DNA of 64,000 bases, from IMG/VR virus record IMGVR_UViG_3300033182_001068, positions 1 to 64,000 of that record, one strand, 5' to 3'. Positions 18,066 to 34,425 of the stretch are shown here, piece by piece. The position numbers and the translations under genes were made by a program. The number at the start of each line of letters is the position of its first letter. Within the stretch, counting starts at the first letter, position 1. The notes under the pieces were generated by a model that was not told where the DNA came from, did no database searches, and saw only the letters and a program-made list of their open reading frames with translations. The DNA comes from a virus.

Positions 18066-18068
18066 GAT

Positions 18069-19774: not shown

Positions 19775-19783
19775 GTCCCCACC

Positions 19784-20743
19784 CTACCCTGTCGTGGCTT
19801 CCTGTTTGGGAATCTCGGCAAGTCGAGGCGATGGGGCTTCGGGGACGCCGAACTCGTGCAGCCAGTACCCCTGAAATGTTCGCTGGCCTGCAGAGTACCC
19901 TGCTCGAACACTATGAGCCATTCGGAACAGGTCGACGATCATTAGGTCGCCTTCGTCCCAAAGGTACCACTCTTGACGTTCTTCGTTTTCGCAGATTTCC
20001 CACCTGACCTTGTCCATCAGTTCTGCGAATGTGTGGCGATGCGAGTCTGTGGCGGGTTGTCCGTCGAAAAGCAGGAGATGTTCTTGCAGTCCGTACATGT
20101 TGTGACATGGGCATGTGCGCAAAGTTGGTTTTTTTGTCGCCGGATGGGGAGACACGGCTGGTCTGCTGTGCGAGGCCACGTAGCCGTCGCCGTCTTTGCT
20201 GTAGATGACTTTTGACCCGGACCGAACATCAGCGCTGAATTGTTCGGACATTTCGGGGGATGGGGGGATGGTCCAGTTGCAGAAGTGGATGATCTCCGCC
20301 CTGTTAAAGAAATCCTGCTCGTCCTCGTCAAGGTCGGCGTACAACTGGCACATGTCAACGAAACCAGTTGAGCCTGTTCCCTTTGGGGCCTTGAAGTTAA
20401 ACATGTTCCATGCGCCGCCGTACTGCGGATACTTCATAGAAACGCCCTCAAGGTGCCATTCAATTAGGGCGGCATCGGCTTCGTTTCGCCCTTCTGACGT
20501 TACGTCATTGATTCGTTTGTCGTGGTCTTGGAGGTATGGCCAAGCCATCGTCTGCTGATCTTGGGTCGTATGAGTCCATCCAAGGTGCGGTGATAGTGCC
20601 GAGCAAATCTGGGCGATATCACTTTCCTCGGCCTTGATCTCCTTGAAGACAACTGCTCCGTTGGATTTATATGACTCGACGTACGGCTGAGGGTTGTTTG
20701 CAACATCGTTCGGCCTGACGCCGACGAAACAAGAAATGGTCAT
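19784..20743 (-). CDS. TauD/TfdA-family 2OG-dependent dioxygenase-like protein
   Basis: EWHLEG (HxE in the WHxD position), GSTGFVDMCQLYADL and WDEGDLMIVDLFRMAHS (W..GD...DN....H pattern). Confidence 0.65.
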   Translation of the reverse strand: MTISCFVGVRPNDVANNPQPYVESYKSNGAVVFKEIKAEESDIAQICSALSPHLGWTHTTQDQQTMAWPYLQDHDKRINDVTSEGRNEADAALIEWHLEGVSMKYPQYGGAWNMFNFKAPKGTGSTGFVDMCQLYADLDEDEQDFFNRAEIIHFCNWTIPPSPEMSEQFSADVRSGSKVIYSKDGDGYVASHSRPAVSPHPATKKPTLRTCPCHNMYGLQEHLLLFDGQPATDSHRHTFAELMDKVRWEICENEERQEWYLWDEGDLMIVDLFRMAHSVRAGYSAGQRTFQGYWLHEFGVPEAPSPRLAEIPKQEATTG

Positions 20744-21387
20744 TTCTCTTCAGACAGGAAGTACTCAATAGCCCCACGAATCCGCCTCAAGGCTTCTTTC
20801 GGGTCATAATCGTCATAACCGGTTTCGAAGTTCGCAGGAAGCAGTGAACCATTGGTGAATCGAACGCGCCGCTTTCCGTCGCGCGAAACAACCCACTTTT
20901 CGAAGTTTCCACGGATTGGCCCGTCCAGCACTCCGAGACGCTGATAAAGAGGGTGTGGATATTGGTCGGGTTCGTCTTCGTAATTCAATCGCGATGCCAC
21001 AAGTTCAGTAAAATCCATACGAACTCGATAGTTGTAGAAGGCATACTTGTGGCACTCTTCGGCAGTGGACTTGGAGTCTTTGAAATCCCCATACCCGTAC
21101 TCGCAGTAGTCATTAGTGGGGACGCAAATGATCTTGAATCCCTGATCGGCGTAGTCGTACTCAAGAACTTGCAGCATCGGGTACTGCATCGAGTTGCCGC
21201 ATTCTCCCGTCACGTTGACAATCATTGTCACCTCGCCGTGACGATCTGCCAGCAGGTTCGAGGTAGATCCGTCTACCGATTTGATGGCAATGTCGTAGAC
21301 ACTTTCGCCGTCTGCGGTCGGCCCAAAATGATGCTCTTTTTCGAGGATTTCGAGCATTGATGTGGTTTCGTTTGCAGTGATTGACAT
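20740..21387 (-). CDS. glutathione-peroxidase-family (thioredoxin-fold) protein
   Basis: IVNVTGECGNS (NVASxCG-like, Cys), FKIICVPTNDY (FPCNQF region) and GNFEKWVVSRDGK (WNFxKFL.). I prefer the ATG at 21387 over the track TTG at 21417. Confidence 0.7.
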   Translation of the reverse strand: MSITANETTSMLEILEKEHHFGPTADGESVYDIAIKSVDGSTSNLLADRHGEVTMIVNVTGECGNSMQYPMLQVLEYDYADQGFKIICVPTNDYCEYGYGDFKDSKSTAEECHKYAFYNYRVRMDFTELVASRLNYEDEPDQYPHPLYQRLGVLDGPIRGNFEKWVVSRDGKRRVRFTNGSLLPANFETGYDDYDPKEALRRIRGAIEYFLSEEK

Positions 21388-21393
21388 GACCCG

Positions 21394-21402
21394 ATGATAC
21401 CA
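21394..21402 (-). promoter_or_regulatory. extended -10-like box TGGTATCAT, 6 nt upstream of the ATG at 21387 (possible leaderless transcript)
   Basis: Minus strand reads CGTGGTATCATCGGGTCATG. No SD fits between the box and the ATG. Confidence 0.35.
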
Positions 21403-21421
21403 CGACCCCCTTATCAAAACG

Positions 21422-23488: not shown

Positions 23489-24487
23489 ATGCCACAACAT
23501 TTCGGGCCACCCACACGAGACAAATACGCCTTCTACAGCCTAGACGAGGCTGACTGCGAGCGAATTGGCGGAATTGAGTACACCCACCATGTCGGCGGTG
23601 TCACACACTTCCACAACGCTTTCCAGATCGATCAAAGTGTCGTTCTTCCCTACATCGACGAAATGGCCTACGTGCCGTCCTGTGGCCTAGAGATCATCAA
23701 AGACGATGAAGGTAACATGATTCGAGGGGAGACCTTCGATGGCAAAGTGGTCGACATCAAAGACCTGCTAGCCCTACCGATGCGTGTTGGTGGAATGGGA
23801 ATGCCGGAACCAGTTCATCCCGGAACCCCTCACGAAGTTCGAGAATTCTTCGAAGGTGTCGAAAGAGCCTTTTACGACTCTCTTATCCGCTACTGTGATC
23901 TGTACCCACTCATCGTCAACTCGATCTGGTGGCGAATGCGAGGCCACTGTCTCAAATATCTGCGGGGCGCCAACCTCGGGCTACACAATGATAACGACAC
24001 GAACACATTTGTGATCGACGGCCAGCGCTACTACAGCGGACGAGAAATTGCGATGTATCAGGTCGTCAACGGTCTCGCCTACTTCAATGACGACTACGAG
24101 GGCGGAGAGATGCATTTCCCCTACCTCGACCTTACGATCAAGCCGAAAACCGGTGACATCATCCTTTTCCCAGCCAACTACGTCGGAGCGCACGGTGTCG
24201 CACAGGTCACGGGAGATATTCCGCGCTACACGTACTTAACGCAGTTCGGTCATGGCGGTGAACACAAATACGAGGTTCTTGAGCCACAGGAAAGCGACAT
24301 GTGGCTGGCACCTGTATACGTTCCGTTTCTTTATCAGGACCACGTCAAGTTCGCCCACTCAGGGCACTCACATCTGGACACATCGAAGGACGTCGCGTTG
24401 GGTTTCCACGCCTCCACCATCGAGACGCAGGAACGTTCAAAGGAAGGCGCTCCTGTCGGTACGGTTATTCCGTATGACGAGGTGTGA
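23489..24487 (+). CDS. 2OG-Fe(II) oxygenase with N-terminal extension
   Basis: SIWWRMRGH...LGLHNDND (HxD), AYFNDDYEGGEMHFP, GDIILFPANYVGAHGV. Paralog of 24465-25133 and 25680-26516. Confidence 0.75.
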   Translation: MPQHFGPPTRDKYAFYSLDEADCERIGGIEYTHHVGGVTHFHNAFQIDQSVVLPYIDEMAYVPSCGLEIIKDDEGNMIRGETFDGKVVDIKDLLALPMRVGGMGMPEPVHPGTPHEVREFFEGVERAFYDSLIRYCDLYPLIVNSIWWRMRGHCLKYLRGANLGLHNDNDTNTFVIDGQRYYSGREIAMYQVVNGLAYFNDDYEGGEMHFPYLDLTIKPKTGDIILFPANYVGAHGVAQVTGDIPRYTYLTQFGHGGEHKYEVLEPQESDMWLAPVYVPFLYQDHVKFAHSGHSHLDTSKDVALGFHASTIETQERSKEGAPVGTVIPYDEV

Positions 24488-25133
24488 ACGGAATCGTTCC
24501 AATAAGCGTTCCGTGTCCAAAAAATTCTAAGTAGGACACTCGTTCTCCTGAGGTGACTGGGACAACCTCGTGAGCCCCAAGGAATCCCGCCGGGTATACA
24601 AAAGCCGACCCAGTTTTTGGTTTGAAGTGCTTATCAATGTACTTGAAACCCAGATCTCCACCTTCACATTCGTCTTTAAGGATCAGCGAACCTGTCAAAA
24701 CGCTGTAGATGGCTTTTTCGCTTTCGGAACCATCTCCGACAAGATTGTCGTGGTGGTACCCCATGTAACCACCTACTCGATAAGTGGCAACATGAGGAAC
24801 TGCCCGCCACCAGATACTGTGCCGAGCCTCAGGGAAAAAATCGAAATACTTTGAGACGCATAGCGTCATCGTGTTTTCTAGCGCTTCAGCAAATGCCAAG
24901 TCCTCTTCGTTGGCATTAACTTTGAGTTGAAGTAGACGGCCCGGAGACGCATTTACCTGCTCTTCGGTGAAAATGTATCCACCACGATTCATGTAGGTTC
25001 CATCGCCTACCGGCTCGTAGTCACGTGGTTCTTGAGTTCTGCGCCGTTCCAGCCACGCTTCAAAAAACTCAGAATCGAAGTTAATGGCGTCGACGTACTC
25101 GACGATTCCAAAACCGTGATGAATCGCTTCCAT
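24465..25133 (-). CDS. 2OG-Fe(II) oxygenase
   Basis: SIWWRAVPH...GYHHDN (HxD), LILKDECEGGDLGF, GSAFVYPAGFLGAHEV. Its 3' end overlaps the convergent 23489-24487 gene by 23 nt. Confidence 0.75.
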   Translation of the reverse strand: MEAIHHGFGIVEYVDAINFDSEFFEAWLERRRTQEPRDYEPVGDGTYMNRGGYIFTEEQVNASPGRLLQLKVNANEEDLAFAEALENTMTLCVSKYFDFFPEARHSIWWRAVPHVATYRVGGYMGYHHDNLVGDGSESEKAIYSVLTGSLILKDECEGGDLGFKYIDKHFKPKTGSAFVYPAGFLGAHEVVPVTSGERVSYLEFFGHGTLIGTIPFTPRHTE

Positions 25134-25711
25134 TACTCGTCAGGGAACTCTGTTCCACGTTCCCGATCGTTGCGAAGTCGCTTTACTTCTTTTGCTGATG
25201 TCTCATGAACTTCTGCAGTCCAATACCCATCAGTGAAAAGATCGGAAATTTCTTGCGCCTTGGCGCCGGAGAGATAGATCGTGTGCTCATCTGTGTAGCC
25301 CTCACGACCGGGGTATGGCCAACCGTAAAGACCAGCCTCGACGTATTCGATGCCAGCCTCAGTAATGATCGACGCAAATTCTTTCTCCGACTCTTCACCC
25401 CAGAGTCCGTTTGCATCGACATAGATCCCGTCGAAACCAACCTTTGCGACATGCTTGGCGATTTCAAGTGGTGCTCCACCAAAAGCAATGCAGAAGAACA
25501 CATCTACCTTCTGCAGCATGATGTCCAAAGTTACGTAGTCAGAAAGTTCGAATTCTTCTGCTCGTGCTGCAGTTGTTTCCGATCGACCTTCTGAAGCCCA
25601 ATACACGTCGTGTCCACTACGGGTCAGGGCATACGCAAGCGTTCCACCCATCTTTCCGGGGTGAGCGATCCCGATGCTTTTAGCCGACCGGGGGGAGGAT
25701 TGAGTAGCCAT
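25133..25711 (-). CDS. NAD(P)-binding Rossmann-fold oxidoreductase-like protein
   Basis: N-terminal SIGIAHPGKMGGTLAYAL (GxGxxG-like) followed by an acidic residue after beta-2. I prefer the ATG at 25711 (MATQSS...). Confidence 0.55.
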   Translation of the reverse strand: MATQSSPRSAKSIGIAHPGKMGGTLAYALTRSGHDVYWASEGRSETTAARAEEFELSDYVTLDIMLQKVDVFFCIAFGGAPLEIAKHVAKVGFDGIYVDANGLWGEESEKEFASIITEAGIEYVEAGLYGWPYPGREGYTDEHTIYLSGAKAQEISDLFTDGYWTAEVHETSAKEVKRLRNDRERGTEFPDE

Positions 25712-26516
25712 TTTCCATGTACACATTCGTTGAGATTTTCGCAAGTTCCGGATTCTCGCGAGGGTCTACGACATTTTCACACACGTCCGGATTCGGTGTG
25801 CCTTGACAATACCATCCCAAATAGGAGTAGCGCCACCCCCCTATTACTGGCTGAACCTCATGGGCTGCCACGTAGTTCGAGGGAAAGAAGAGCATGTCGC
25901 CCTTTTTGATGTTTTTGTGGTTGATATCCAGATACGCAAAATTATGAGCGCCACCAGTGAAGTTGGTGCCGTCCAATTCTTCTTCGGACTCGACGGAGTC
26001 GTTCAGATAGGCGACCACGGAAACACTGTTTCGTGTTGCCAGTTGGTCTCGTGGGTGTGGTTTCCCGTATTCGTAATCCGTGCTCACATCCGCGTGCATT
26101 CCAAGGAATCCGCCGACCGGATAGGCAACAATGTGGCTTTTGATTTTCCACCAAATGCATTTTCCCGCGATAGGGAACATTTCCAAGTAAGCAAGTAGAC
26201 AGGCGTCACGACGCTCCTCGATGTAGTCAAGGGTGTCAATAACTTCTTGACGACTGTCCTGATGAACGAAACTTCCACGCCAAGGCATTTCATCAAGCGA
26301 GTCCTTCTTAAAGAAGTAGCCGCTTCGGTTGATGTATCCATCCTCGCCGGTAATGGGATCTTTCCCGGGGGTATACATGGTGTCGCGTTCTTGCTGCAAA
26401 ACTGTTTTGCAGTAATCGCGCATCCATGCCCAATCGAGGTCGAACACCTGTTCGAAAAGAACAACTCCTCCACCGAGATGCTTGCCAACCGGAAAATCTT
26501 TATCGCTCGAACTCAT
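25680..26516 (-). CDS. 2OG-Fe(II) oxygenase
   Basis: CIWWKIKSH...LGMHADV (HxD), AYLNDS...GGAHNF, GDMLFFPSNYVAAHEV. I prefer the ATG at 26516 (MSSSDKDF). Confidence 0.75.
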   Translation of the reverse strand: MSSSDKDFPVGKHLGGGVVLFEQVFDLDWAWMRDYCKTVLQQERDTMYTPGKDPITGEDGYINRSGYFFKKDSLDEMPWRGSFVHQDSRQEVIDTLDYIEERRDACLLAYLEMFPIAGKCIWWKIKSHIVAYPVGGFLGMHADVSTDYEYGKPHPRDQLATRNSVSVVAYLNDSVESEEELDGTNFTGGAHNFAYLDINHKNIKKGDMLFFPSNYVAAHEVQPVIGGWRYSYLGWYCQGTPNPDVCENVVDPRENPELAKISTNVYMENGYSILPPVG

Positions 26517-28074
26517 ATTCGTCCAACTCCAGCATGTATGAGATGTAATCGTTGATACGTTCAATGATTCTACGACGTTCGTCATTGTCTTTCAGGTGAT
26601 TGAAGCACCCATAGATAGAGTCAATGGCAAACTGCACAAGGAAATCTTCAGGGGGATTCTTCCCGTTGAAGCCCTCATAGGTCATGAACGACAGGTTGTG
26701 GAAGTCCCAAGGCCTGAATTGCAAAGGCTGATGTGGAAACCAGTCTGGATAATGCCAAGCATGGCCAGCGTGGCGCATGTCTGGATGCCAGCGAAGATAT
26801 GCTCGCACCTTCTCGATGGGAGTCAGCAAACCATCTTCATTGGACTTTGTTTGCATCAGGTCTTGACGCGCAGGCATTGACCCACCATGGGTGTCGCCAT
26901 TCCGAGAGAACAGGAACATCTGACCCTCGACTGGGTCTTCAACATTGTGGTGCTTGCTGTAGCGCATCAAATTGACGAAAACTCGGTTATTTTCGTCAAT
27001 CGGAACTCCGACGACATGGAAGTCATCAGACAGTTCGTCTGTCTCATCTATAAAATCCTTGAATTCTTGGACTTTCTGCGGAACGGAGCCATCCTCCGAA
27101 AACACGAACAATGTCACCTTTTGGAAAAGGTGTTCGAGCCCTCTCAGGGCGTAGATGCCTTTTGTGAAAACAAGCGGGATGTGATCAGGGTTCGGACCTT
27201 TTGAGCGGTCTTTTGCTACGCCTTTGTACTCGTTCGTGTCGCCGAAAGCCGGATCTAGGTTGCCCTCATGATTCACGTCATAGAACGGTGCCTCGTTGCC
27301 TACCTCTACACGCTGGAAGATTCGCTCCGATCGATCCCACCCGTTGTAGAAGCCGTGCATTACAGCCCGATTGTCCCAAATGATTACATCACCCTCTGAC
27401 CATGTCCACTTGAATCGGTTGGCTTCGTTGGCGCAGTAGTCAGTGACCCACTCGTAAAGTTCATCAAACCACGGAGTGTTGCCACCGGCCAGTGCTGTGC
27501 CCGGGCCAGTCCAATAAAGCATTGTCTCGCCGGTGTCTGGGTGAGTGCGAAGTGCTGGGTGCGTGGACACATCTTGATCGATCGCTCCTGTCTGGCATAC
27601 AAAGTGGGCGGTTTCGAGATGCTCTTTGATGTGGTCAGGACAATCGTTGTAGAGGTTTGCAAGACTCACGAAAAAGGTGTGTCCGTAATCCGGGTCCACC
27701 TTGTACGTCGTCATATGGATGGAAACCAGACATGGTGGTTCGGGCATGAAGGGGTTATCGACGTGCCAGTTGCGCTTCAAAAAACCCTCTGGATCAGTCT
27801 TGTCCTCAACGTTCAGTACGGTTTCATGTCGCTGTCCTGCCAACAATCCGCCGCTGAAGTCTTCATCGCGGACTCCTCGATACAAACAGTCCACCAACTG
27901 CATGTGCTCCAAGTCGGTAGGTCGCATGCCAATGAAGCCGATGACCTTGTTGCGCTTAAATATCTCCTTGAAGTACGAGGGATCGTCGAACACCTGTTCG
28001 GCTTTTACTCCTTTGATCTTGAATCCAAGATTGCCGAGTTTGAGACCGAGGGCGATTCCGCCAAATTTCTTCAT
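26500..28074 (-). CDS. TauD/TfdA-family 2OG dioxygenase with an uncharacterised C-terminal domain of about 250 aa
   Basis: NWHVDNPF (WHxD), GHTFFVSLANLY and WSEGDVIIWDNRAVMHG. The ATG at 28074 forms an ATGA overlap with the upstream stop. Confidence 0.75.
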   Translation of the reverse strand: MKKFGGIALGLKLGNLGFKIKGVKAEQVFDDPSYFKEIFKRNKVIGFIGMRPTDLEHMQLVDCLYRGVRDEDFSGGLLAGQRHETVLNVEDKTDPEGFLKRNWHVDNPFMPEPPCLVSIHMTTYKVDPDYGHTFFVSLANLYNDCPDHIKEHLETAHFVCQTGAIDQDVSTHPALRTHPDTGETMLYWTGPGTALAGGNTPWFDELYEWVTDYCANEANRFKWTWSEGDVIIWDNRAVMHGFYNGWDRSERIFQRVEVGNEAPFYDVNHEGNLDPAFGDTNEYKGVAKDRSKGPNPDHIPLVFTKGIYALRGLEHLFQKVTLFVFSEDGSVPQKVQEFKDFIDETDELSDDFHVVGVPIDENNRVFVNLMRYSKHHNVEDPVEGQMFLFSRNGDTHGGSMPARQDLMQTKSNEDGLLTPIEKVRAYLRWHPDMRHAGHAWHYPDWFPHQPLQFRPWDFHNLSFMTYEGFNGKNPPEDFLVQFAIDSIYGCFNHLKDNDERRRIIERINDYISYMLELDEYEFER

Positions 28075-28793
28075 TTTGGTTCTTTCAGTTGCGGGTGGCC
28101 GTCGAAGCGTGGACCGATCTGATTGCCGTTCTCGTCCAGTCCTGTGCGGATTCCGCCCATCCATGTCCAAGGCTGCTCTTGCAGTTTTTTCATTTTCGCA
28201 TCCCCGTAAGACTGCCGGGCAGCGGAAAGTTCTGGCTTATCCCAGTAGTTCTCAACATTGAACTCAACGCTGGGCATTAGAGATGTGTCGTAAAACTGGA
28301 AAAACATGAATGGTGATCCCGCCGGGAAAACGACAGGCTCGCCAATCTTGGTGATTTTCCAGTTCATGTTGAACTCGTCTGGCCACCACTCGGATGGGAT
28401 GTGAGCGGTCAATGGAACCGCTCCGTCTACGAAGTAGTTGGGTGAGCCAGAGATCCATGTACCGATACCCGGAGGTGTAGAGAATGACCAGCCAGTTGTG
28501 AATGACATGATGCCGATGATGCTGGGCATAACGATGTCTCGCTCATAGGTCTGACCATTTGTCTCAAACGTCATTTTTTCGCCGCTCAAAACACGTGGGA
28601 CAGTGAGTCCTCCATCCCATTGAATAACGACGTCTTGCTGAAGGACCAGTTCCCAGCCGTTGACGTTTGCTTCGGTAAGAGGCAGGCACTTGTATGCGTG
28701 CTTCTTGTACGTCTCGTCCATCCAGTCCCTTCGGACTTCGGCCTGCCTGATTTGAGGAGGGTTCTGGTGGGTGCGTGTAACGGTGACTTGCAT
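28071..28793 (-). CDS. cupin-like protein, paralog of 13843-14688
   Basis: See 13843-14688. The ATG at 28793 overlaps the upstream TGA by 1 nt. The longer track ORF (to 29213) is Arg-rich off-frame sequence and is rejected. Confidence 0.55.
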   Translation of the reverse strand: MQVTVTRTHQNPPQIRQAEVRRDWMDETYKKHAYKCLPLTEANVNGWELVLQQDVVIQWDGGLTVPRVLSGEKMTFETNGQTYERDIVMPSIIGIMSFTTGWSFSTPPGIGTWISGSPNYFVDGAVPLTAHIPSEWWPDEFNMNWKITKIGEPVVFPAGSPFMFFQFYDTSLMPSVEFNVENYWDKPELSAARQSYGDAKMKKLQEQPWTWMGGIRTGLDENGNQIGPRFDGHPQLKEPK

Positions 28794-29494
28794 CAGGACA
28801 GGGTTGACGTCTGGTTGCTTACGACAGGAATACCAGACATTGCAACAGTTGGTTCTGGCGCTTGTGTAGCCGAGTGTTGCTGATGGTTTCGGTCGTTGTA
28901 GTCGTACATTGTGACTGCTGAGTACTTGACGCCTTCGTTGACCGGCTGGGAGGCATGTGCGTAGATGAAATCGCTTGGGTGAACGATGACGTCGCCAGCC
29001 TCGGGAACGAACTTGAGGTTCTTGAATGGCATGACATATTCGCCGCCGGTGTAGTCGTCGTTGATATATCCGATTGTCGATACGGCACAGGAGTAAGAGA
29101 ACCCTGAGTCGGGGTGAACGGCGAAGTGTTGTCCAACGCCGTACTTCACGAAATTGGTTGCTTCTTCGTAGTCGAGTTGAAGGTTGTAGAGGCTTGAGTA
29201 GTGACGCACACACTCACGTACACCGCCGATGACTTCTTCGTACACTTTGCCGAGATCGGCAAACTCTTCGGGGACGGGAAGATCGAACTGTCGTAGTTTG
29301 AAGTCGAAGCAGTCTCGGTAGTCCCTCATGACTTCGTAGTCGCCAACTGTGGCCTGTTTCCAACTGAAGTATTCGTGGGTGCTTCCTTCCAGACCACGTT
29401 CGAGTCTGCCAACAAAATCGGAGCCTTCGGGCCAAACGTCTTTGTAGAGGAGGATTCCGTCACTGGGGTTTCCCAGATAACCACCGATACGCAT
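28793..29494 (-). CDS. 2OG-Fe(II) oxygenase (prolyl-4-hydroxylase-like)
   Basis: FAVHPDSG (HxD), GYINDDYTGGEYVMPF, GDVIVHPSDFIYAHAS...GVKYSAV. Confidence 0.75.
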   Translation of the reverse strand: MRIGGYLGNPSDGILLYKDVWPEGSDFVGRLERGLEGSTHEYFSWKQATVGDYEVMRDYRDCFDFKLRQFDLPVPEEFADLGKVYEEVIGGVRECVRHYSSLYNLQLDYEEATNFVKYGVGQHFAVHPDSGFSYSCAVSTIGYINDDYTGGEYVMPFKNLKFVPEAGDVIVHPSDFIYAHASQPVNEGVKYSAVTMYDYNDRNHQQHSATQAPEPTVAMSGIPVVSNQTSTLS

Positions 29495-29498
29495 GTTG

Positions 29499-30128
29499 TT
29501 ACCTCAGTTCAGTAATTGTGTAGAAAGATGGGGTTGTCCAGCGTTCACCAGACACCATTGGTTTTACCCCGTGCAGGTAGTGTACGTCGCCGGGGTGAGC
29601 GACCGCCATGCCTGCTTTGATTGGCAGGTGGATATCAAACTCGGGGTAGTAGAAGTCTCCACCCTCGAAGTTGTCGTTCCAGTAAATGATCGAATTGATG
29701 TCGTATGTTGGGAACGGGTTCGGTGTTCCGTCGTTCAGTTGCTTGTCGGCGTGCGGTTGCTGTTCGTTTCCTTCAAGCCACCTGATCAAGACCGGTGGTC
29801 GTTTGTACAGTGAAACGTTGAACTTCTGTTCGAGTACGTTCTGCATCTTGTCGATGTACTTGTCGATGAGCGCATGCATGTCTGGGGCAATCCTCTGAAG
29901 GATTGTTCCACTACACATGCGATCCCACCAGTATGAGGCATCGTAAATACAGGTTCCATCTTCGTTGAACTCGTCCCCCAAGGGGTTTTCCCACTCTGAG
30001 ATCGTCGGGAAAAACTCCTGCAACACTTTCAGGTCGTCTGGGTCGACAAAATCTTCGATGATTGTGATGTTGTCGGCAGATGTTCCAAAGTGGCCGGGTT
30101 CGACTAGAGAGACTTCATCGTCAGCCAT
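29499..30128 (-). CDS. 2OG-Fe(II) oxygenase (prolyl-4-hydroxylase-like)
   Basis: QPHADKQ (HxD), IIYWNDNFEGGDFYYPEF, AGMAVAHPGDVHYLHGV...GERW. Confidence 0.75.
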   Translation of the reverse strand: MADDEVSLVEPGHFGTSADNITIIEDFVDPDDLKVLQEFFPTISEWENPLGDEFNEDGTCIYDASYWWDRMCSGTILQRIAPDMHALIDKYIDKMQNVLEQKFNVSLYKRPPVLIRWLEGNEQQPHADKQLNDGTPNPFPTYDINSIIYWNDNFEGGDFYYPEFDIHLPIKAGMAVAHPGDVHYLHGVKPMVSGERWTTPSFYTITELR

Positions 30129-30150: not shown

Positions 30151-30426
30151 TTACTTGGCGTGCAGGATCTTCCGTACCTTCGCCTCGAACAGTAAATGGA
30201 AAGTCAGCCACACCCAGACAACTCGCAGTGTTGGCCCGGCAATGCTTTGTTCTGCTGAGCGCCAAAAATAGCGAGACAGGGTTTCGATCCGTCTAGTCTT
30301 TATTGCAAACACATCGTAAGCAATAATAACCAAGATGAGACCGACCCACCCGTATGCGCCAGATGCGCGACTATCTCGCGTCAAGTCAATTGGACCCAAA
30401 TACCATCCAATAAACCGCTTGAGCAT
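30151..30426 (-). CDS. small membrane protein (2-3 TM)
   Basis: 91 aa with hydrophobic segments GWVGLILVIIAYDVFAI and VVWVWLTFHLLF. Confidence 0.55.
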   Translation of the reverse strand: MLKRFIGWYLGPIDLTRDSRASGAYGWVGLILVIIAYDVFAIKTRRIETLSRYFWRSAEQSIAGPTLRVVWVWLTFHLLFEAKVRKILHAK

Positions 30427-30435: not shown

Positions 30436-31011
30436 CTATTTGAAACCCGGCGGGAAGAACGGCGGGAAGTGAGGCGGGAAATGCGGAGGGAACCACGGAG
30501 GGAAATGTGGAGGGAAGAAAGGTGGGAAGTGTGGTGGGAAGTGTGGTGGAAAGAACGGTGGGAAGTGTGGTGGGAAGTGAGGTGGGAAGAACGGAGGAAA
30601 GTGGGGAGGGAAATGTGGAGGGAAGAACGGCGGGAAATGCGGCGGGAAATGTGGAGGGAAATGCGGCGGGAAATGTGGAGGGAAGAACGGAGGAAAGTGG
30701 GGCGGAAAGTGAGGTGGGAAGAACGGAGGAAAGTGGGGCGGAAAGTGCGGCGGGAAAAACGGGCCGATTGCGCGAACCGAAATCACCACACCAATCGGAA
30801 GTTCGAACGAAGTGGTGTCCGTGTACGTGACGCCATCAACAACGATCTCGTGGGCCTTTCCAACATCTCCAGCAACGGACGTGTCTGACGTGTCGGCAGC
30901 CTCAGAGACAATCGAAAACCCCAACCCCTGAAGGGTCGTTACAAGGTCGCCCGCATCTTCCCCATCAGTGTAAGTAAATGCGCCTTTCGGGGTATCGCTT
31001 CTTCCAGCCAT
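30436..31011 (-). CDS. (H/F)FPP tetrapeptide-repeat protein (84-aa N-terminal domain + 26 tandem xFPP units)
   Basis: Direct translation: ...AIGP-FFPP-HFPP-HFPP-FFPP-...-WFPP-HFPP-HFPP-FFPP-GFK. It lies immediately downstream of the 1132-aa fibre gene. Confidence 0.8.
   Translation of the reverse strand: MAGRSDTPKGAFTYTDGEDAGDLVTTLQGLGFSIVSEAADTSDTSVAGDVGKAHEIVVDGVTYTDTTSFELPIGVVISVRAIGPFFPPHFPPHFPPFFPPHFPPHFPPFFPPHFPPHFPPHFPPHFPPFFPPHFPPHFPPFFPPHFPPHFPPFFPPHFPPHFPPFFPPHFPPWFPPHFPPHFPPFFPPGFK
30448..30759 (-). repeat. 12-nt-period coding tandem repeat (26 units) with a partial 36-nt super-period
   Basis: Units use mixed synonymous codons: Pro CCA/CCG/CCT/CCC, Phe TTC/TTT, His CAC/CAT. The common super-unit is FFPP-HFPP-HFPP. 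Confidence 0.9.
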
Positions 31012-31026: not shown

Positions 31027-34000
31027 TCACGTCTTGGTGTCGCCGTAGACGAGCCACGAATCGGAGGAACGTCGCTTGCAGATAATAACCGAATACCGTT
31101 CACGACACTTAAAGCCATTCGCCCCATTGATGGTCACGCCGGACCCGCCAGCAACAGTCACCTGACCAGTATCCACCTGCGTAACCTCGAACCAGTCGCC
31201 GTCAGACCAAGACCCGGAAGATTGCGGCGCAATCGTAAATGTAACAGCGTTCGTACTGTCGTTATACATCATCTGGCCTGCATAGGTGCCGGTCACGGTC
31301 GTTGTGATGTTCTGGTGATACCAGTTTTGACGAACGACCGTCCCAGTCGGCAACGTCACTGTTCCGGTGAAAGTCGGCGAAGCAAGAGGGGCCTTCAGGG
31401 CCAACGAGTTCGTGACCGTCGTCGAGAAGTTCGCATCATCACCAAGAGCAGCCGCCAACTCGTTCAACGTGTCAAGCGTCCCCGGAGCGGAATCAACTAG
31501 GTTCGCAACAGCGGTTGACACGAACTCGGTTGTAGCGATCTGGGTCGTGTTGGTGCCTGCCGTTGCAGTTGGCGCAGTCGGTGTTCCGGTGAGTGGGGTG
31601 TCAACGAGAATGTCGGTGTTGACCCACGCAGAATCAGAAACACTCCACCGAAGCACCTGCCCCCCTGAGGGGGAGCCGCTGATACTGACATCTCCAATGT
31701 CAGCCACCGAGTTGATCGTCGGAATAGAAGCGTTCACCCAGTTCGAGGTGCCGTTATCCCACTTTAGGAACTGGCCGTCGGAGACGCTCGTGATGGTTAC
31801 ATTTGTGACGTTTTCCAACGTATGAGCAGTGTTTACATAGTTGGTTCCGTTGTAGAGCAGGATGTCGCCAGATGATTCGGCAGACGTTGACACTCCGGAA
31901 GCGCCCTGAATAGTCCAAGGTTCCGCAACCCAGTTGGTGCCGTCAAAGTAGGCGATGTCACCCTGACTTGGGGCAACGGTTGTCATGTCGACGTCACTCA
32001 AACCACCAATGCTGTGATTCGAGATGCCAGAAACTGTTCCGGTTACATCGCCGGTCAAGTCCCCAGTTACATTTCCGGTCAGGTTGGCGGTGACCGTGCC
32101 GAACGTGACGTTTGCACCAGAAGCAACATCCTGACCGATGGCAATGGTTGCTGTCGATCCTTCACCGGGAGTGTGGGTGACCGTAACTCCGGTTCCACCT
32201 GAAACGTCGGTCATAAAGTTTCCGGTAGTGTCGGTTCCGAGGGCGACCGAGTTCGCTGCAATCGTCACAGCCAGAGAAGCATTAGCGGTTCCATCAAACG
32301 ACGCGGAACCGGTCACGTCGCCGGTGAGTTCAATTGTGCGTGACGTAGCGAGTGCTGTAGCGGTGCTGGCGTTCCCAGTTAGGCTCGCCGTGACACTATT
32401 GAATGTGACATCAGAAGTCGTCAGAAGGTTCTGCCCGGCGTTGGATGTCTCGATCGACGTGACGCGACCGTAAGCATCTGTAGTTACGGCAGAAACAAAA
32501 TCTGAAGTATCTGAACCAGTTGTGCTTCCGACTGTTACCGTGCCAAGGTCGATGTTGTCGGCGTTGACAACAATCCGGCCAGAATCTGCCGTCACGATGT
32601 CGATTGTGTTCCCGGTCTTGGTCAGGCCACCACCGGCGGAGAAAGCCTGCGTTCCAGTGAACTGCGTAAAGGTGATGGAATCGGTGCCAATGGTGTGCGG
32701 GTCATTTGTTGAAGTGACAACAAAGCCCTGATTCGAGTTTGTGGACCCAGCGAGAACAAACACGGCTTCGCCGGGCTGAACCCCTCCGGGCTGAGTTCCG
32801 TCAAAATCTTCCGCGCGAGTAAGTACCCATGCCGCAGATCCGGCGGCACCTTGATTGGTGACGTCGTAGATGCCGTTTTCATAACCGTTTGACTGGTTCT
32901 TGACGAGGACACGGTCGCCGGTGTTGGCATTTGCGCCATCAATGAGGAGTCGTGCTTGACTCCCGGCGGTGAGCGTTGCGCCGTCTCCCGATGTGCCGTT
33001 GCTGTAGGTCGGCGTGTCCGGCAAGGCCGCAGCAGTCGCAAGACGAGCAGCCTCGTGCCAGTCGATTCCAGCAGCAAGATTGTCGACATACGACTTTGTT
33101 GCTGCGTGAGTCGCCTGCGTTGGAGCCGCTCCAAGAGTGACGGTGTTGAATGCGACGTTCGCGCTTGTTGCTACATCCTGACCGATCGAAATTGTCGGCT
33201 GGGCGCTCTCGCCAGAGTTGTTGGCAAGAGTAATGCCGGTGCCGTTGACGAGATTAGCGACGTAGTCTCCAGTCGTGTCGGTTCCCAGCGCAATGCTGTT
33301 GGCTTGAATCGTGGCAGCAATATCGACGTTGGCGCTACCGTCAAAACTGACAGAACCGGCGACGTCTCCAGAAAGTGAAATGGTTCTTGCGGTAGCGAGA
33401 GTTGTGGCCGTATCTGCGTTGCCCGTAACATCCCCGGTGACGTTGCCGGTCACATCGCCGGTCAAGTCGCCAGTGACGTTACCTGTCACGTTCCCAGTGA
33501 CATCACCCGTTAGATCAGCGGTAACGGTGTTGAAGGTGACGTTGTCAGTGGTGCTGACAGCCTGACCGATGGCAACAGTAGGCGTGTTTCCTTCTCCGGT
33601 TCCTCCGGTGACGGTAACACCTGTTCCGCCAGTAACACTTTCTGTGTAGTTTCCTGTTGTGTCGGTTCCCAGCGCAACAGAGTCTGGCTGGATTGTGACA
33701 GCGATATTGATGTCACCTGAACCGTCAAAACTTGCAGAACCAGATGCGTCGCCAGAGATCTGGATCGTGCGAGCAGTTTCCAAAGCACTCGCAGTATCGG
33801 CATTACCTGTTAAGTCACCAGTAAGGCCACTTGTGGTTGAAAGTGACGGGATCGAGACCGTGCTGCCATCGCTTGTGATCTCAACGCCACCCAAGTCAAT
33901 GGTTGTGCCAGAGAGGTACAGGTCGCGGAATCGGTTATCCGTTGAACCAAGGTCGTAGGTGACGTCAGTGTCAGGAACGATATGGCCACCAACAGTGATT

Positions 34001-34425
34001 CCGGCATCCGTGGTAAGAGTATTGAACGTTACGTTGTCAGTCGTTCCGACAGCCTGCCCAATAGCAACCGTCGGGGTGGCGCCCTCACCCGTGTTGTTCG
34101 TAAGAGAGACACCAGTTCCAGCGACAAGGCTTTCCACGTAATCACCAACAGAGTCGGTGCCAAGGTTGACGGCATCGTTAATCCATGCGGAGCCATTCCA
34201 GCGAAGGAAGTCGCCGTCAGCAGCCGAAGTGATCGTTACATCACTTATATCGTTTAGGCCAGCAGCGTTGTAGTAATAATCAAGAGAGGTCCACGCGGTT
34301 GAGCCGTCACCAATCTTGATCTTTCCAGTGTCGGTTTCGTAACCTAGTTCACCCTGCGCGAGAGTCGGGTTGGCCGAAGTCCAGTTTGATGCCGTATCGC
34401 GACGGAGTTGAATTTGTGCTGCCAT
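31027..34425 (-). CDS. large tail fibre protein (1132 aa) with internal repeats
   Basis: N-terminal QLRRDTASNW...GELGYETDTGKIKIGDGSTAW fibre motif. Three to four copies of a roughly 130-aa unit (GNADTA..L..ARTI.LSGD..GS.SFDGS...ALGTDTTGNY...GEG.TPTVAIGQ.V...NVTFNTVTA). C-terminal GTPTAPTATAGTNTTQIATTEFV collar-like motif. Confidence 0.85.
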   Translation of the reverse strand: MAAQIQLRRDTASNWTSANPTLAQGELGYETDTGKIKIGDGSTAWTSLDYYYNAAGLNDISDVTITSAADGDFLRWNGSAWINDAVNLGTDSVGDYVESLVAGTGVSLTNNTGEGATPTVAIGQAVGTTDNVTFNTLTTDAGITVGGHIVPDTDVTYDLGSTDNRFRDLYLSGTTIDLGGVEITSDGSTVSIPSLSTTSGLTGDLTGNADTASALETARTIQISGDASGSASFDGSGDINIAVTIQPDSVALGTDTTGNYTESVTGGTGVTVTGGTGEGNTPTVAIGQAVSTTDNVTFNTVTADLTGDVTGNVTGNVTGDLTGDVTGNVTGDVTGNADTATTLATARTISLSGDVAGSVSFDGSANVDIAATIQANSIALGTDTTGDYVANLVNGTGITLANNSGESAQPTISIGQDVATSANVAFNTVTLGAAPTQATHAATKSYVDNLAAGIDWHEAARLATAAALPDTPTYSNGTSGDGATLTAGSQARLLIDGANANTGDRVLVKNQSNGYENGIYDVTNQGAAGSAAWVLTRAEDFDGTQPGGVQPGEAVFVLAGSTNSNQGFVVTSTNDPHTIGTDSITFTQFTGTQAFSAGGGLTKTGNTIDIVTADSGRIVVNADNIDLGTVTVGSTTGSDTSDFVSAVTTDAYGRVTSIETSNAGQNLLTTSDVTFNSVTASLTGNASTATALATSRTIELTGDVTGSASFDGTANASLAVTIAANSVALGTDTTGNFMTDVSGGTGVTVTHTPGEGSTATIAIGQDVASGANVTFGTVTANLTGNVTGDLTGDVTGTVSGISNHSIGGLSDVDMTTVAPSQGDIAYFDGTNWVAEPWTIQGASGVSTSAESSGDILLYNGTNYVNTAHTLENVTNVTITSVSDGQFLKWDNGTSNWVNASIPTINSVADIGDVSISGSPSGGQVLRWSVSDSAWVNTDILVDTPLTGTPTAPTATAGTNTTQIATTEFVSTAVANLVDSAPGTLDTLNELAAALGDDANFSTTVTNSLALKAPLASPTFTGTVTLPTGTVVRQNWYHQNITTTVTGTYAGQMMYNDSTNAVTFTIAPQSSGSWSDGDWFEVTQVDTGQVTVAGGSGVTINGANGFKCRERYSVIICKRRSSDSWLVYGDTKT
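33418..33513 (-). repeat. eight tandem (L/V)TG(D/N) tetrapeptide units (12-nt period) inside the fibre gene
   Basis: Translates LTGD VTGN VTGN VTGD LTGD VTGN VTGD VTGN. Confidence 0.85.

What the first reader, a model, noticed from the sequence alone, without database searches (positions are those of the whole stretch)
30436..31011. Protein with 26 tandem (H/F)FPP tetrapeptides next to a bank of prolyl-hydroxylase-like genes
After an 84-aa N-terminal domain, the ORF encodes FFPP-HFPP-HFPP-FFPP-... for 26 units: 17 HFPP, 8 FFPP and 1 WFPP. It ends in GFK.

The DNA repeat has a 12-nt period. Synonymous codons vary between units (Pro CCA/CCG/CCT/CCC, Phe TTC/TTT, His CAC/CAT). This argues for selection on the peptide rather than recent slippage or an assembly artefact.

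Half of the repeat residues are Pro, which predicts a polyproline-II-like rod. Regularly spaced His and aromatic residues could bind metal or respond to pH.

The gene sits between the 1132-aa fibre gene and the oxygenase island. Viral and bacterial P4Hs are known to hydroxylate Pro-rich repeats; for example, the PBCV-1 P4H acts on (Pro-Ala-Pro-Lys)n. A substrate-enzyme relationship is therefore plausible. I do not recognise this repeat from any described protein family.
Basis: partly seen in the sequence, partly recalled or inferred. Interest (0 to 1): 0.8.

Follow-up and report, generated by a model that had tools for sequence, protein, structure and literature searches.

The report
Aromatic-proline rod protein beside phage hydroxylases
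An uncultured phage of actinobacteria encodes a small head domain on a long rod of 26 (His/Phe)-Phe-Pro-Pro units; it belongs to a large undescribed family of phage tail-region proteins whose genes almost always sit beside a bank of prolyl-hydroxylase-like enzymes, which makes it a testable candidate substrate for those unexplained phage enzymes.

Summary
ORF 30436-31011 (-) encodes an 84-aa N-domain, 26 xFPP units (17 H, 8 F, 1 W) and GFK. It is coding: in the F-P-P codons all 36 deviations from the column majority are at third positions, none at first or second.

The repeat is not unique. It defines an undescribed phage family (158 protein clusters; more than 600 IMG/VR stretches; no Pfam, PHROG, NCBIfam or literature match). 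The same array carries interchangeable modules (PASTA, 1 to ~7 fn3, Cys-rich tails, Hint domains) or links domains inside 1000-1500-aa tail proteins. It therefore behaves as a modular stalk or spacer. Array length is labile (9 vs 26 units in close orthologs), and the array is a mosaic junction.

The host is actinobacterial (WhiB; sheath closest to actinophages).

The neighbouring oxygenases are P4H-type (B. anthracis P4H 1e-13; PBCV-1 P4H 7e-12). The linkage is strong but not universal:
- 35/37 DUF6065-anchored banks have an upstream xFPP gene; the other two have a collagen-like protein in that slot.
- 36/45 pattern-sampled xFPP genes have an oxygenase within 3 kb.
- A sipho-like lineage mostly lacks one.

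Hydroxylation is inferred, not shown. His-based metal binding is not a family trait.

The parts
30436..31011 (-). xFPP stalk-protein gene (191 aa): N-domain, 26 xFPP units, GFK, stop
   Evidence: Homologs. No Pfam, PHROG or NCBIfam hit.
30760..31011 (-). N-terminal 84-aa globular domain. Predicted order is beta-alpha-beta-beta-beta at low confidence. It is specific to a small subgroup (P0001, P0002, L007, L011).
   Evidence: AF2. dN/dS 0.17 against L001. Homology to the PASTA-type N-domains of the family is not demonstrated (hhalign probability 2.6%). Only one homolog was found by word search.
30448..30759 (-). Array of 26 x-F-P-P units (312 nt, 104 aa). As polyproline-II it would be about 32 nm long (inference).
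30439..30447 (-). Conserved x-F-K C-terminus (GFK). Family members that end right after the array use the same kind of ending (SFK, AFK, RFK, GFK).
30570..30585 (.). Approximate mosaic breakpoint inside the array. Downstream of about 30577 the window is collinear for 12.5 kb (87% nt identity) with contig L114. Upstream of it, L114 encodes an unrelated multi-fn3 N-terminal part.
31027..34425 (-). 1132-aa tail fibre with Mtd_N N-terminal motif, 15 nt upstream of the xFPP gene
30151..30426 (-). 91-aa DUF7427 protein with a strong hydrophobic segment and a weaker second one. It is conserved directly after the xFPP gene in close relatives.
29499..30128 (-). oxyA: 2OG-Fe(II) oxygenase of P4H type. 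This orthogroup is present in 100 of 102 oxygenase-bearing loci.
28793..29494 (-). oxyB: 2OG-Fe(II) oxygenase of P4H type, always abutting DUF6065. This orthogroup is present in 99 of 102 loci.
28071..28793 (-). DUF6065 protein (240 aa), the signature partner of the bank; function unknown
26500..28170 (-). TauD-family 2OG oxygenase. The true start is probably near 28074, by comparison with the 524-aa ortholog in L114.
25680..26585 (-). oxyC: 2OG-FeII_Oxy_3 paralog (start uncertain)
24465..25133 (-). oxyD: 2OG-FeII_Oxy_3 paralog
23489..24487 (+). oxyE: 2OG-FeII_Oxy_3 paralog on the opposite strand
15869..21417 (-). Distal part of the oxidative island: oxyG (15869-16591), tryptophan halogenase (16584-18065), oxyF (18635-19204), a second TauD (19784-20743) and a glutathione-peroxidase-like gene (20740-21417)
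11172..12746 (-). 524-aa fibre-like protein with collagen-like G-N-P/G-X-Y runs and an extremely His-rich centre; an alternative or additional candidate substrate for the hydroxylases

Best explanation
The ORF encodes a tail-fibre-module stalk protein of an uncultured actinobacteriophage with a contractile tail. It has three parts: a small globular N-terminal head (84 aa), a semi-rigid rod of 26 aromatic-Phe-Pro-Pro units, and a conserved x-F-K end. The rod is about 32 nm long if it is polyproline-II.

It is a member of a large, previously undescribed phage protein family. In that family the xFPP array is a modular spacer that links interchangeable surface or binding modules: PASTA, fn3 arrays, Cys-rich knots and Hint domains. 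Rod length changes quickly by gain or loss of units. Because the array is a repeat, it also serves as a recombination joint where heads are swapped.

The gene sits in one tight co-directional string with the fibre gene and a conserved bank of P4H-type 2OG/Fe(II) oxygenases plus DUF6065. The most likely role of that bank is post-translational hydroxylation of the prolines of this rod, and of collagen-like fibre proteins where present. This would resemble viral and plant P4Hs acting on PPII-type Pro-rich repeats.

What is shown:
- The coding frame and selection on the peptide.
- Family membership and modular architecture.
- Placement in the tail module.
- Conserved linkage to P4H-like genes.
- Array-length lability and a mosaic junction inside the array.

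What is inferred:
- PPII conformation.
- Presence in the virion.
- Hydroxylation (my probability for this sub-claim is about 0.45-0.5).
For: **Coding and selection**
- 36 deviations at third codon positions against 0 at first or second positions.
- x is restricted to F/Y/H/W in more than 98% of 1,327 units.
- N-domain dN/dS is 0.17.

**Family and modularity**
- 158 protein clusters; more than 600 IMG/VR stretches match the pattern.
- Architectures: PASTA + xFPP, fn3(1 to ~7) + xFPP, xFPP + Cys-rich tail, xFPP + Hint.
- The array is an internal linker in 1000-1500-aa tail proteins.
- The PASTA-type heads match M. tuberculosis PknB PASTA at 2e-11.

**Tail-module context**
- The gene is adjacent to Mtd_N fibres in the window and in many loci.
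- In the sipho-like lineage it is the last large tail gene.
- The window's gene chain has gaps of -4 to +51 nt and no convincing terminator.

**Length lability and mosaicism**
- 9, 14, 20, 26 and 30 units in the closest orthologs, with identical terminal units.
- The breakpoint with L114 lies inside the array.

**Enzymes**
- All paralogs keep HxD...H plus K/R.
- Profile against PDB: B. anthracis P4H 1e-13, PBCV-1 P4H 7e-12, P3H1 6e-9, Chlamydomonas P4H 2e-8, human C-P4H 5e-8, LH3 4e-7; AlkB only 0.05.

**Linkage**
- 35/37 DUF6065-anchored banks with enough flank have an upstream xFPP gene. The other two have a collagen-like GPT/GPA protein in the same slot.
- 39/45 pattern-sampled xFPP genes have an oxygenase in the locus, and 36/45 have one within 3 kb.
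- Linkage survives four different gene orders and DUF6065 divergence down to about 30% identity.
- Only 8/37 banks have a collagen-like run nearby, so xFPP is the consistent partner.

**Precedent**
- PBCV-1 P4H hydroxylates Pro-Ala-Pro-Lys repeats (PMC3634087).
Against: - There is no biochemical or proteomic evidence for expression, virion location or hydroxyproline.
- AF2 gives only a low-confidence model (pLDDT 52). The repeat has no assigned secondary structure, which is compatible with PPII but does not prove it.
- Most loci come from one broad uncultured phage clade, so conserved synteny is partly shared ancestry.
- xFPP arrays occur without a nearby oxygenase in the sipho-like lineage (L111, L112, L126 and others) and in L013 and L016.
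- Seven or more oxygenase paralogs, two TauD enzymes, a halogenase and DUF6065 are more than one substrate needs. They could serve an unrelated chemistry.
- Related oxygenases in cyanomyoviruses lie scattered among replication genes with no xFPP partner.
- Prolines flanked by bulky aromatics are not a known P4H substrate.
- The window also holds a collagen-like protein with X-Pro-Gly motifs that could be the real substrate.
Confidence: 0.55

Rival explanations
1. The protein is a structural stalk or spacer as above, but the oxygenase bank has nothing to do with it. On this reading the bank is an auxiliary or other-purpose island (metabolite, nucleotide or different protein chemistry) that happens to be inserted at the variable end of the tail-fibre module. 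The linkage would then reflect inherited synteny in one phage clade.
For: - xFPP arrays occur without a nearby oxygenase in several loci and in a whole sipho-like lineage.
- The island also holds TauD enzymes, a tryptophan halogenase, a peroxidase and a Rossmann protein.
- DUF6065 shows only a weak dUTPase-like fold similarity.
- Homologous oxygenases in cyanomyoviruses are not next to any such protein.
Against: - Linkage persists through four local gene orders and down to about 30% DUF6065 identity.
- In L006 the bank is bracketed by two xFPP genes.
- In the two banks that lack xFPP, a collagen-like Pro-rich protein fills the same slot.
- The enzymes' closest solved relatives are all peptidyl-prolyl or lysyl hydroxylases.
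- The bank is in one tight gene string with late structural genes.
Confidence: 0.3
2. The hydroxylases act mainly on collagen-like (G-X-Y) fibre proteins of these phages, such as window 11172-12746 with its G-N-P triplets. The xFPP protein would be an unmodified neighbour.
For: - X-Pro-Gly and GPT repeats are canonical or proposed P4H substrates. The top PDB relative is the B. anthracis P4H.
- Collagen-like runs occur in the window and in some loci next to the bank.
Against: - Only 8 of 37 banks have a collagen-like run within the fetched flanks, against 35 of 37 with an xFPP array.
- In the window the collagen-like gene is more than 3 kb beyond the far end of the island, whereas the xFPP gene is about 300 nt from oxyA.
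Confidence: 0.1
3. The protein is not a virion component. It would be a tail-fibre assembly chaperone or adaptor, or a host-cell-wall-directed accessory protein made during infection, with its head domain binding peptidoglycan as PASTA domains do.
For: - In the window the gene directly follows a fibre gene, which is the classic chaperone position.
- Many family heads are true PASTA domains, a peptidoglycan-sensing module of actinobacteria.
Against: - There is no similarity to any known chaperone family.
- The gene order relative to the fibre is not conserved.
- The same array is embedded in 1000-1500-aa multi-fn3 tail proteins.
- No signal peptide is visible in the N-terminal sequences (not formally predicted).
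- The query's own head is not demonstrably PASTA.
Confidence: 0.04
4. The ORF is spurious: an assembly or slippage artefact, or the antisense ORFs (30469-30888 and 30507-30830, plus strand) are the real genes. A related idea is that it is a RiPP-like precursor whose repeats are cut out and tailored.
For: - Long antisense ORFs exist across the repeat.
- Tailoring-type enzymes lie nearby.
Against: - All variation is synonymous in the xFPP frame.
- Hundreds of independent contigs conserve that frame with varied codons.
- All neighbouring genes are on the minus strand.
- No protease, cyclase or transporter was identified among the neighbouring genes that were annotated, and the array sits inside large structural proteins in other phages.
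Confidence: 0.01

Closest known systems
Chlorella virus PBCV-1 prolyl 4-hydroxylase and its (Pro-Ala-Pro-Lys)n-type proline-rich viral proteins
   Same: A virus encodes a P4H-type 2OG oxygenase together with proteins that carry short tandem Pro-rich tetrapeptide repeats. PBCV-1 P4H (PDB 5c5t) is the second-best solved relative of the oxygenase profile (7e-12). Its action on Pro-Ala-Pro-Lys repeats is documented (PMC3634087).
   Different: PBCV-1 is a eukaryotic giant virus with a single enzyme and a basic, non-aromatic repeat. Here a bacteriophage has a bank of 7 or more paralogs plus DUF6065, an aromatic x-F-P-P repeat, tight gene linkage and a modular head-on-rod architecture. Hydroxylation is not demonstrated.
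Hydroxyproline-rich glycoproteins of plants and green algae (extensins, Chlamydomonas GP1, Volvox pherophorins)
   Same: Globular domains are carried on long PPII rods of short Pro-rich repeats that P4Hs hydroxylate (own knowledge). Chlamydomonas P4H-1 (2jig) matches the oxygenase profile at 2e-8.
   Different: There is no sequence relationship. The HRGP repeats are Ser-Pro(n), not aromatic-Phe-Pro-Pro. They are secreted, glycosylated wall proteins. No glycosyltransferase was found in the part of the window examined.
Collagen-like proteins with dedicated hydroxylases in microbes and viruses (B. anthracis BclA with its P4H; mimivirus collagens with L230)
   Same: These are Pro-rich PPII-forming repeat fibres on a particle surface, encoded with a P4H- or LH-type enzyme. 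B. anthracis P4H is the best PDB match (1e-13), and a 235-residue viral-type procollagen lysyl hydroxylase/glycosyltransferase (6ax6; mimivirus L230 by my recollection) also matches. In two related loci a collagen-like GPT/GPA protein replaces xFPP in the same slot.
   Different: xFPP has no Gly every third residue, so it cannot form a collagen triple helix.
Rigid proline-rich spacers such as TonB (Glu-Pro/Lys-Pro), the streptococcal antigen I/II P-region, trypanosome procyclins and maize gamma-zein (VHLPPP)8
   Same: These are tandem short Pro-rich units that act as extended PPII spacers between functional ends. Gamma-zein also combines His, hydrophobic residues and Pro (own knowledge).
   Different: They are unrelated in sequence, are not phage proteins, have no linked hydroxylases and lack the invariant Phe-Pro-Pro core.
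Ig-like and fn3 decoration domains on phage virions, and PASTA domains of actinobacterial PknB and PBPs
   Same: The heads of most family members are fn3 or true PASTA domains, which are modules typical of surface-exposed, ligand-binding parts.
   Different: Pfam does not recognise the query's own 84-aa head, and it is not significantly similar to the PASTA-type heads.

Membership tests
xFPP-repeat phage stalk proteins (family defined here; not in Pfam, PHROGs or NCBIfam) | At least 4 in-register tandem [F/Y/H/W]-F-P-P units | tested here: met
   26 units.
xFPP-repeat phage stalk proteins (family defined here; not in Pfam, PHROGs or NCBIfam) | Globular module N-terminal to the array, and an x-F-K end when nothing follows the array | tested here: met
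   An 84-aa N-domain under purifying selection. The protein ends in GFK, as other members end in SFK, AFK or RFK.
xFPP-repeat phage stalk proteins (family defined here; not in Pfam, PHROGs or NCBIfam) | Gene in the tail or tail-fibre module of a phage | tested here: met
   The gene is 15 nt after the Mtd_N fibre gene, and sheath, tape measure and baseplate genes are in the same window.
Substrates of P4H-type hydroxylases (HRGP, PBCV-1-like or collagen-like) | Pro-rich tandem repeat able to adopt PPII | tested here: inconclusive
   The array is 50% Pro with Pro-Pro in every unit. AF2 gives no helix or strand at pLDDT 55-66.
Substrates of P4H-type hydroxylases (HRGP, PBCV-1-like or collagen-like) | A P4H-type enzyme encoded in the same genome and conserved with the substrate gene | tested here: met
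   Profile hits to P4Hs at 1e-13 to 5e-8 with an intact HxD...H...K/R motif. Linkage is 35/37 and 36/45.
Substrates of P4H-type hydroxylases (HRGP, PBCV-1-like or collagen-like) | Hydroxyproline actually present in the mature protein | not testable with these tools
   This needs mass spectrometry or amino-acid analysis.
Collagen-like proteins (PF01391) | Gly at every third residue (G-X-Y)n | tested here: not met
   There is no Gly in the array and no Pfam Collagen hit.
PASTA domain proteins (PF03793) | N-domain matches the PASTA profile or PASTA-type relatives | tested here: not met
   No Pfam hit at E <= 0.01. hhalign against the family's PASTA-type heads gives probability 2.6%, E 0.018. The predicted beta-alpha-beta-beta-beta order is compatible but of low confidence. 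Other family members are true PASTA domains.
Tail-fibre assembly chaperones and adhesin tips (Tfa, gp38-like) | Sequence membership in a known chaperone or adhesin family, and a fixed position after the fibre gene | tested here: not met
   No Pfam, PHROG or NCBIfam hit. The order relative to the fibre varies between loci.
Prolyl 4-hydroxylase-type 2OG/Fe(II) oxygenases (the neighbouring genes) | HxD...H iron triad, a basic 2OG-binding residue, and closest solved relatives being P4Hs | tested here: met
   Single sequences give only weak hits. Catalytic activity and substrate were not tested.
RiPP precursor peptides | Leader plus core repeats, with a dedicated protease, cyclase or exporter | tested here: not met
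   No such genes were found among the annotated neighbours. The array also occurs inside 1000-1500-aa structural proteins.

The most novel reading that the evidence does not exclude
Uncultured aquatic actinophages build hydroxyproline-rich, extensin-like rods. A dedicated, co-transcribed bank of P4H-type oxygenases (the conserved oxyA/oxyB pair plus DUF6065) would post-translationally hydroxylate the aromatic-Pro-Pro stalk, and collagen-like fibres where present, on the virion's host-recognition apparatus. This would be the first enzyme-substrate pair of this kind in a bacteriophage. It would also give a concrete function to at least part of the long-unexplained multi-copy 2OG-Fe(II) oxygenases of aquatic phages. 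The repeat array would double as a length-tunable spacer and as a recombination joint for swapping receptor-binding heads.
Probability: 0.35. Interest if true: 0.85.

Novelty: new variant of a known kind. Interest (0 to 1): 0.68.

Why it matters
- Multi-copy 2OG-Fe(II) oxygenases are among the most common unexplained genes of aquatic phages. This module offers a specific candidate substrate encoded next door, which can be tested with a synthetic peptide or by co-expression.
- It adds a new, abundant repeat family to the list of phage structural building blocks. The x-F-P-P rod is absent from Pfam, PHROGs and NCBIfam and was not found in the searchable literature.
- It shows how a repeat can act both as a length-tunable spacer and as a junction for exchanging host-binding modules. 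That bears on host-range evolution in phages of freshwater actinobacteria, hosts that are mostly uncultured.
- An aromatic-proline rod of defined length could also interest protein designers, if it proves to be a stable PPII structure.

Tried and rejected
- **Cultured-phage relatives.** Megablast of the 12-kb neighbourhood against cultured phages found no match. tblastn of the ORF gave only a chance hit, because the low-complexity filter masks the repeat. DUF6065 is absent from cultured phages.
- **Curated families.** Pfam, PHROGs and NCBIfam give nothing for the ORF. PHROGs give nothing meaningful for larger family members.
- **Literature.** 'FPPFFPP' and 'DUF6065' return 0 papers. Searches combining prolyl hydroxylase, phage, proline-rich and PPII terms found nothing relevant.
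- **Structure of the query.** AF2 gave pLDDT 52, too low for a fold search.
- **N-domain.** A word-based homology search found only P0001. Profile comparison with the PASTA-type heads was not significant.
- **DUF6065.** No PDB sequence relative. A confident AF2 model (pLDDT 86) gave only weak, partial dUTPase-barrel similarity (TM 0.38 over the query, rmsd about 6 Å), so no function was assigned.
- **Cellular genomes.** Only phage contigs binned into MAGs were true hits. The Subtercola hit has no xFPP ORF.
- **Three-unit super-period as evidence for a three-fold PPII assembly.** It is real but modest family-wide (x identity 0.63 at lag 3 against 0.45-0.55 at other lags; clear in 28 of 55 arrays). 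There is also a faint signal at synonymous sites, so it is not used as evidence.
- **His-mediated metal binding as the family function.** Rejected, because x is interchangeably F, Y or H.
- **Exhaustive representative search.** Multi-PASTA proteins that match the heads dominated the results, so it does not size the xFPP family cleanly.
Full report
**1. The observation**

The minus-strand ORF 30436-31011 is 191 aa. It has 84 non-repetitive residues, then exactly 26 in-register tetrapeptides (17 HFPP, 8 FFPP, 1 WFPP; window 30448-30759), then GFK and the stop codon. Tandem Repeats Finder reports period 12, 25.8 copies and 73% identity.

The 26 units comprise 17 different 12-nt sequences. In the Phe-Pro-Pro codons, 36 deviations from the column majority fall at third positions and none at first or second positions. 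That pattern is expected only if the xFPP frame is translated and under strong purifying selection. It also disposes of the long antisense ORFs (30469-30888, 30507-30830), which are a by-product of the composition.

A 3-unit super-period (FFPP-HFPP-HFPP) is visible. Identical unit haplotypes at several positions show that the array grew partly by duplication.

**2. The phage**

- The window is the late region of a phage with a contractile tail: sheath, tape measure, baseplate wedge, several fibres and terminase.
- It has no close cultured relative. Its sheath is closest (about 39%) to those of Gordonia, Arthrobacter and Brevibacterium phages.
- It encodes a WhiB-family regulator (1869-2186, Pfam 1e-13). 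The host is therefore almost certainly an actinobacterium.

**3. The repeat defines a family**

A search of 5.8 billion proteins found 158 clusters, all unnamed. More than 600 stretches in IMG/VR match FPP-x-FPP-x. No Pfam, PHROG or NCBIfam model and no paper in the searchable library covers the repeat.

Across 1,327 units, x is F (764), Y (301) or H (244), and almost nothing else. The second residue is Phe throughout the arrays inspected. So an aromatic ring at x is what selection keeps, not histidine as such. The query subgroup is simply the His-rich end of the family.

The architecture is modular:
- **N-terminal to the array:** an 80-88-aa PASTA domain, one to about seven fn3 domains, or the query-type 84-aa domain. 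A profile of the PASTA-type heads hits M. tuberculosis PknB PASTA at 2e-11.
- **C-terminal to the array:** nothing but x-F-K, a Cys-rich tail, an acidic or Lys-rich tail, or a Hint/intein-like domain.

In a separate low-GC lineage with a giant tape measure and DnaB/DnaG/PolIIIα genes, the same array is an internal linker in the last, 1000-1500-aa tail protein. There it lies between fn3-rich or Cys-rich N-terminal parts and a C-terminal fn3-like domain.

The simplest reading of all these contexts is that the array is a portable spacer or stalk joining surface-type modules.

**4. The query's own head**

Its closest orthologs (P0001/L001, P0002/L002, L007, L011) share the 84-aa domain. dN/dS is 0.17 between the window and L001. 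AF2 predicts a β-α-β-β-β order at low confidence (pLDDT 52).

Pfam does not call it PASTA, and a profile comparison with the PASTA-type heads is not significant (probability 2.6%). I therefore leave its fold open.

**5. Length lability and mosaicism**

Close orthologs carry 9, 14, 20, 26 and 30 units. Between the window and L001 the first units and the last five units plus GFK match unit for unit, the last five identically at DNA level. The difference is therefore an internal expansion or contraction.

Contig L114 has an oxygenase island collinear with the window for 12.5 kb at 87% nucleotide identity. It shares the last five units and GFK but attaches them to a multi-fn3 protein. The homology begins inside the array at about window position 30577. 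So the array is a recombination junction at which heads, and the fibre genes upstream, are exchanged.

**6. The neighbours**

From 37273 down to 24465, all genes are on the minus strand with gaps of -4 to +51 nt and no convincing terminator. After the xFPP gene come:
- a 91-aa DUF7427 membrane-type protein;
- two 2OG-FeII_Oxy_3 genes (oxyA, oxyB);
- DUF6065;
- a TauD-family enzyme;
- further 2OG paralogs and a Rossmann protein;
- further on, a glutathione-peroxidase-like gene, a second TauD, a tryptophan halogenase and two more 2OG paralogs.

All aligned paralogs keep the HxD...H triad and a basic residue about ten positions after the distal His.

Single sequences hit P4Hs only weakly. A profile of 15 paralogs is clearer:

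| Solved relative | E-value |
|---|---|
| B. anthracis P4H | 1e-13 |
| PBCV-1 P4H | 7e-12 |
| PKHD hydroxylase | 9e-12 |
| P3H1 | 6e-9 |
| Chlamydomonas P4H | 2e-8 |
| human C-P4H | 5e-8 |
| LH3 | 4e-7 |
| AlkB | 0.05 |

DUF6065 remains unknown. It has no PDB sequence relative. A confident model (pLDDT 86) has only weak, partial resemblance to the dUTPase barrel.

**7. Is the linkage more than coincidence?**

Three samples bear on this.

(a) *Contexts of diverse family members.* In the PASTA + Cys-rich, fn3 and Hint types, a fibre, an xFPP gene and the bank all lie within a few kb. Many phages carry two xFPP genes. In L006 the bank lies between them.

(b) *Anchoring on DUF6065 instead.* There are at least 584 IMG/VR loci, and 80 were fetched.
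- Of the 37 with at least 6 kb of upstream flank, 35 have an xFPP array upstream on the same strand.
- The two without it (L059, L066) have a 272-276-aa collagen-like GPT/GPA protein in exactly that slot.
- Every one of the 37 banks is therefore preceded by a gene for a Pro-rich, PPII-type repeat protein.
- Collagen-like runs are present near only 8 of the 37.

(c) *A pattern-based sample not filtered by similarity to my query*. Of 45 xFPP genes with at least 5 kb downstream, 39 have a P4H-like gene in the locus and 36 have one within 3 kb.

The local order varies: fibre-xFPP-bank, xFPP-fibre-bank, xFPP-bank, and xFPP-bank-xFPP. DUF6065 identity falls to about 30% and GC ranges from about 33% to 53%, yet the linkage holds.

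Against this:
- Most loci belong to one broad clade.
- The sipho-like lineage usually lacks a nearby oxygenase. One of the three loci examined in detail has a solitary 2OG gene 1.3 kb downstream.
- L013 and L016 also lack one.
- Distantly related oxygenases of cyanomyoviruses are scattered among replication genes.

**8. Mechanism**

I commit to the following.

*Shown:* the gene is real, selected, modular, tail-associated, length-variable and a mosaic junction. It is genetically coupled to P4H-type enzymes in this clade.

*Inferred:*
- The array forms an extended PPII-type rod (half the residues are Pro, in Pro-Pro pairs; 104 residues × about 3.1 Å ≈ 32 nm).
- The rod holds a binding head away from the virion's fibre apparatus.
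- The co-transcribed hydroxylases convert some of its prolines to hydroxyproline, which would stiffen or solubilise a very hydrophobic rod. Precedents are PBCV-1 P4H on Pro-Ala-Pro-Lys repeats (PMC3634087) and plant and algal P4Hs on HRGP rods (own knowledge).

I put about 0.7 on the structural-stalk part and about 0.45-0.5 on hydroxylation.

The main rival keeps the stalk but treats the bank as an unrelated island. A second rival makes the collagen-like proteins the true substrates, including the window's 524-aa G-N-P and His-rich ORF. Chaperone, RiPP and artefact readings are poorly supported.

**9. Comparison with what is known, and novelty**

The system works like the PBCV-1, mimivirus, BclA and HRGP systems: a Pro-rich repeat fibre plus a dedicated hydroxylase. 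It is not a member of any of those families:
- It has no Gly periodicity, so it is not collagen.
- It has no sequence relation to extensin or PAPK repeats.
- The repeat itself is undescribed.

I know of no such pairing reported for a bacteriophage, and found none in the searchable literature. I class it as a new variant of a known kind.

Its main value is to turn the old question of what phage 2OG-Fe(II) oxygenases do into a bench-testable one for this clade.

Noticed in passing
L006:1709-3037 and L006:10001-10963; also P0046, P0066, P0081, P0085, P0181, P0182: In some phages the xFPP array is followed by a Hint/intein-like domain (Pfam Intein_splicing, sub-threshold). It starts with Cys right after the array (…FPA|C(V/L)D), has a TxxH block (…FTETHPIFV…) and ends …THNK. 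It could cleave itself off and leave an activated (thioester) C-terminus on the rod, which hints at covalent attachment of the rod's C-terminal end.
   Followed up: partly
window ~30577 vs L114:584 (L114 = ENA ERZ28574307 scaffold_717): The window and L114 are collinear for 12.5 kb (87% nt identity) from inside the repeat array through the oxygenase island, but are unrelated upstream. The array is a mosaic junction at which N-terminal modules are swapped.
   Followed up: yes
L059:~6551 and L066:~6516: In the only two DUF6065 banks without an upstream xFPP gene, a 272-276-aa collagen-like (GPT/GPA) protein occupies the same slot just upstream of the oxygenases.
   Followed up: partly
window 11172-12746 (-): A 524-aa fibre-like ORF has Gly-rich ends and collagen-like G-N-P triplets (the X-Pro-Gly motif). 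Its centre is extraordinarily rich in His, Asn and Thr (runs such as NHHHTSSH, HHHYHYDGY, NHNHHY). It could bind metal or be another hydroxylase substrate.
   Followed up: partly
window 1869-2186 (-): A WhiB-family transcription factor (Pfam 1.3e-13), a hallmark of actinobacteria and their phages. With the actinophage-like sheath it points to an actinobacterial host.
   Followed up: yes
window 8530-10860 (-): A 776-aa ORF with an N-terminal signal-peptide-like segment containing RR, very long Thr/Pro-rich linkers, a hydrophobic segment near the C-terminus and a Gly/Ser/Pro tail. It has no family hit. It looks like a secreted or anchored actinobacterial-style protein carried by the phage.
   Followed up: no
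window 15869-21417 and 23489-30128: The oxidative island is unusually large: seven 2OG-FeII_Oxy_3 paralogs, two TauD-family enzymes, a tryptophan (flavin) halogenase, a glutathione-peroxidase-like protein, a Rossmann-fold protein and DUF6065. A halogenase next to an aromatic-rich repeat protein is suggestive, but it was not examined.
   Followed up: partly
window 28071-28793 (-) and alignment A6: DUF6065 is widespread in viral contigs (at least 584 IMG/VR loci; 382 protein clusters) but absent from cultured phages. It models confidently (pLDDT 86) as a mostly beta protein with a long C-terminal helix. Only weak dUTPase-barrel similarity was found. Its invariant residues include His32, Cys36 and several Trp.
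   Followed up: partly
window 30151-30426 (-); L002:10451-10726; L114:~730-1005: A 91-aa DUF7427 protein, with one strong hydrophobic segment and a weaker second one, is conserved directly between the xFPP gene and the first oxygenase in the close relatives. Its role is unknown.
   Followed up: no
L110, L111, L112 (P0171, P0254, P0195); also P0135, P0151: A second, low-GC (~36%) phage lineage has a 4095-aa tape measure and DnaB/DnaG/PolIIIα genes. It uses the same xFPP array as an internal linker in its last 1000-1500-aa tail protein. L110 has a solitary 2OG oxygenase inserted 1.3 kb downstream that its two relatives lack.
   Followed up: partly
P0008, P0013, P0014, P0021, P0034, P0057, P0059, P0077; L016:5274-6932: Many family members end in Cys-rich tails of 40-70 aa (6-14 Cys) that look like small disulfide-knotted modules. 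L016/P0127 alternates xFPP-like PFFPPTFQS repeats with Cys-containing domains.
   Followed up: no
window 56110-57258 (-): An ORF with a PAPS-reductase-family domain (Pfam 6e-10) lies in the structural/packaging part of the window.
   Followed up: no
L107 (Cyclobacteriaceae MAG contig, 106 kb) and L108 (Verrucomicrobiales MAG contig): Contigs carrying the full xFPP + oxygenase + DUF6065 module are binned into bacterial MAGs of unrelated phyla. They are almost certainly phage contigs mis-binned, or host-associated, and are not evidence for those hosts.
   Followed up: partly
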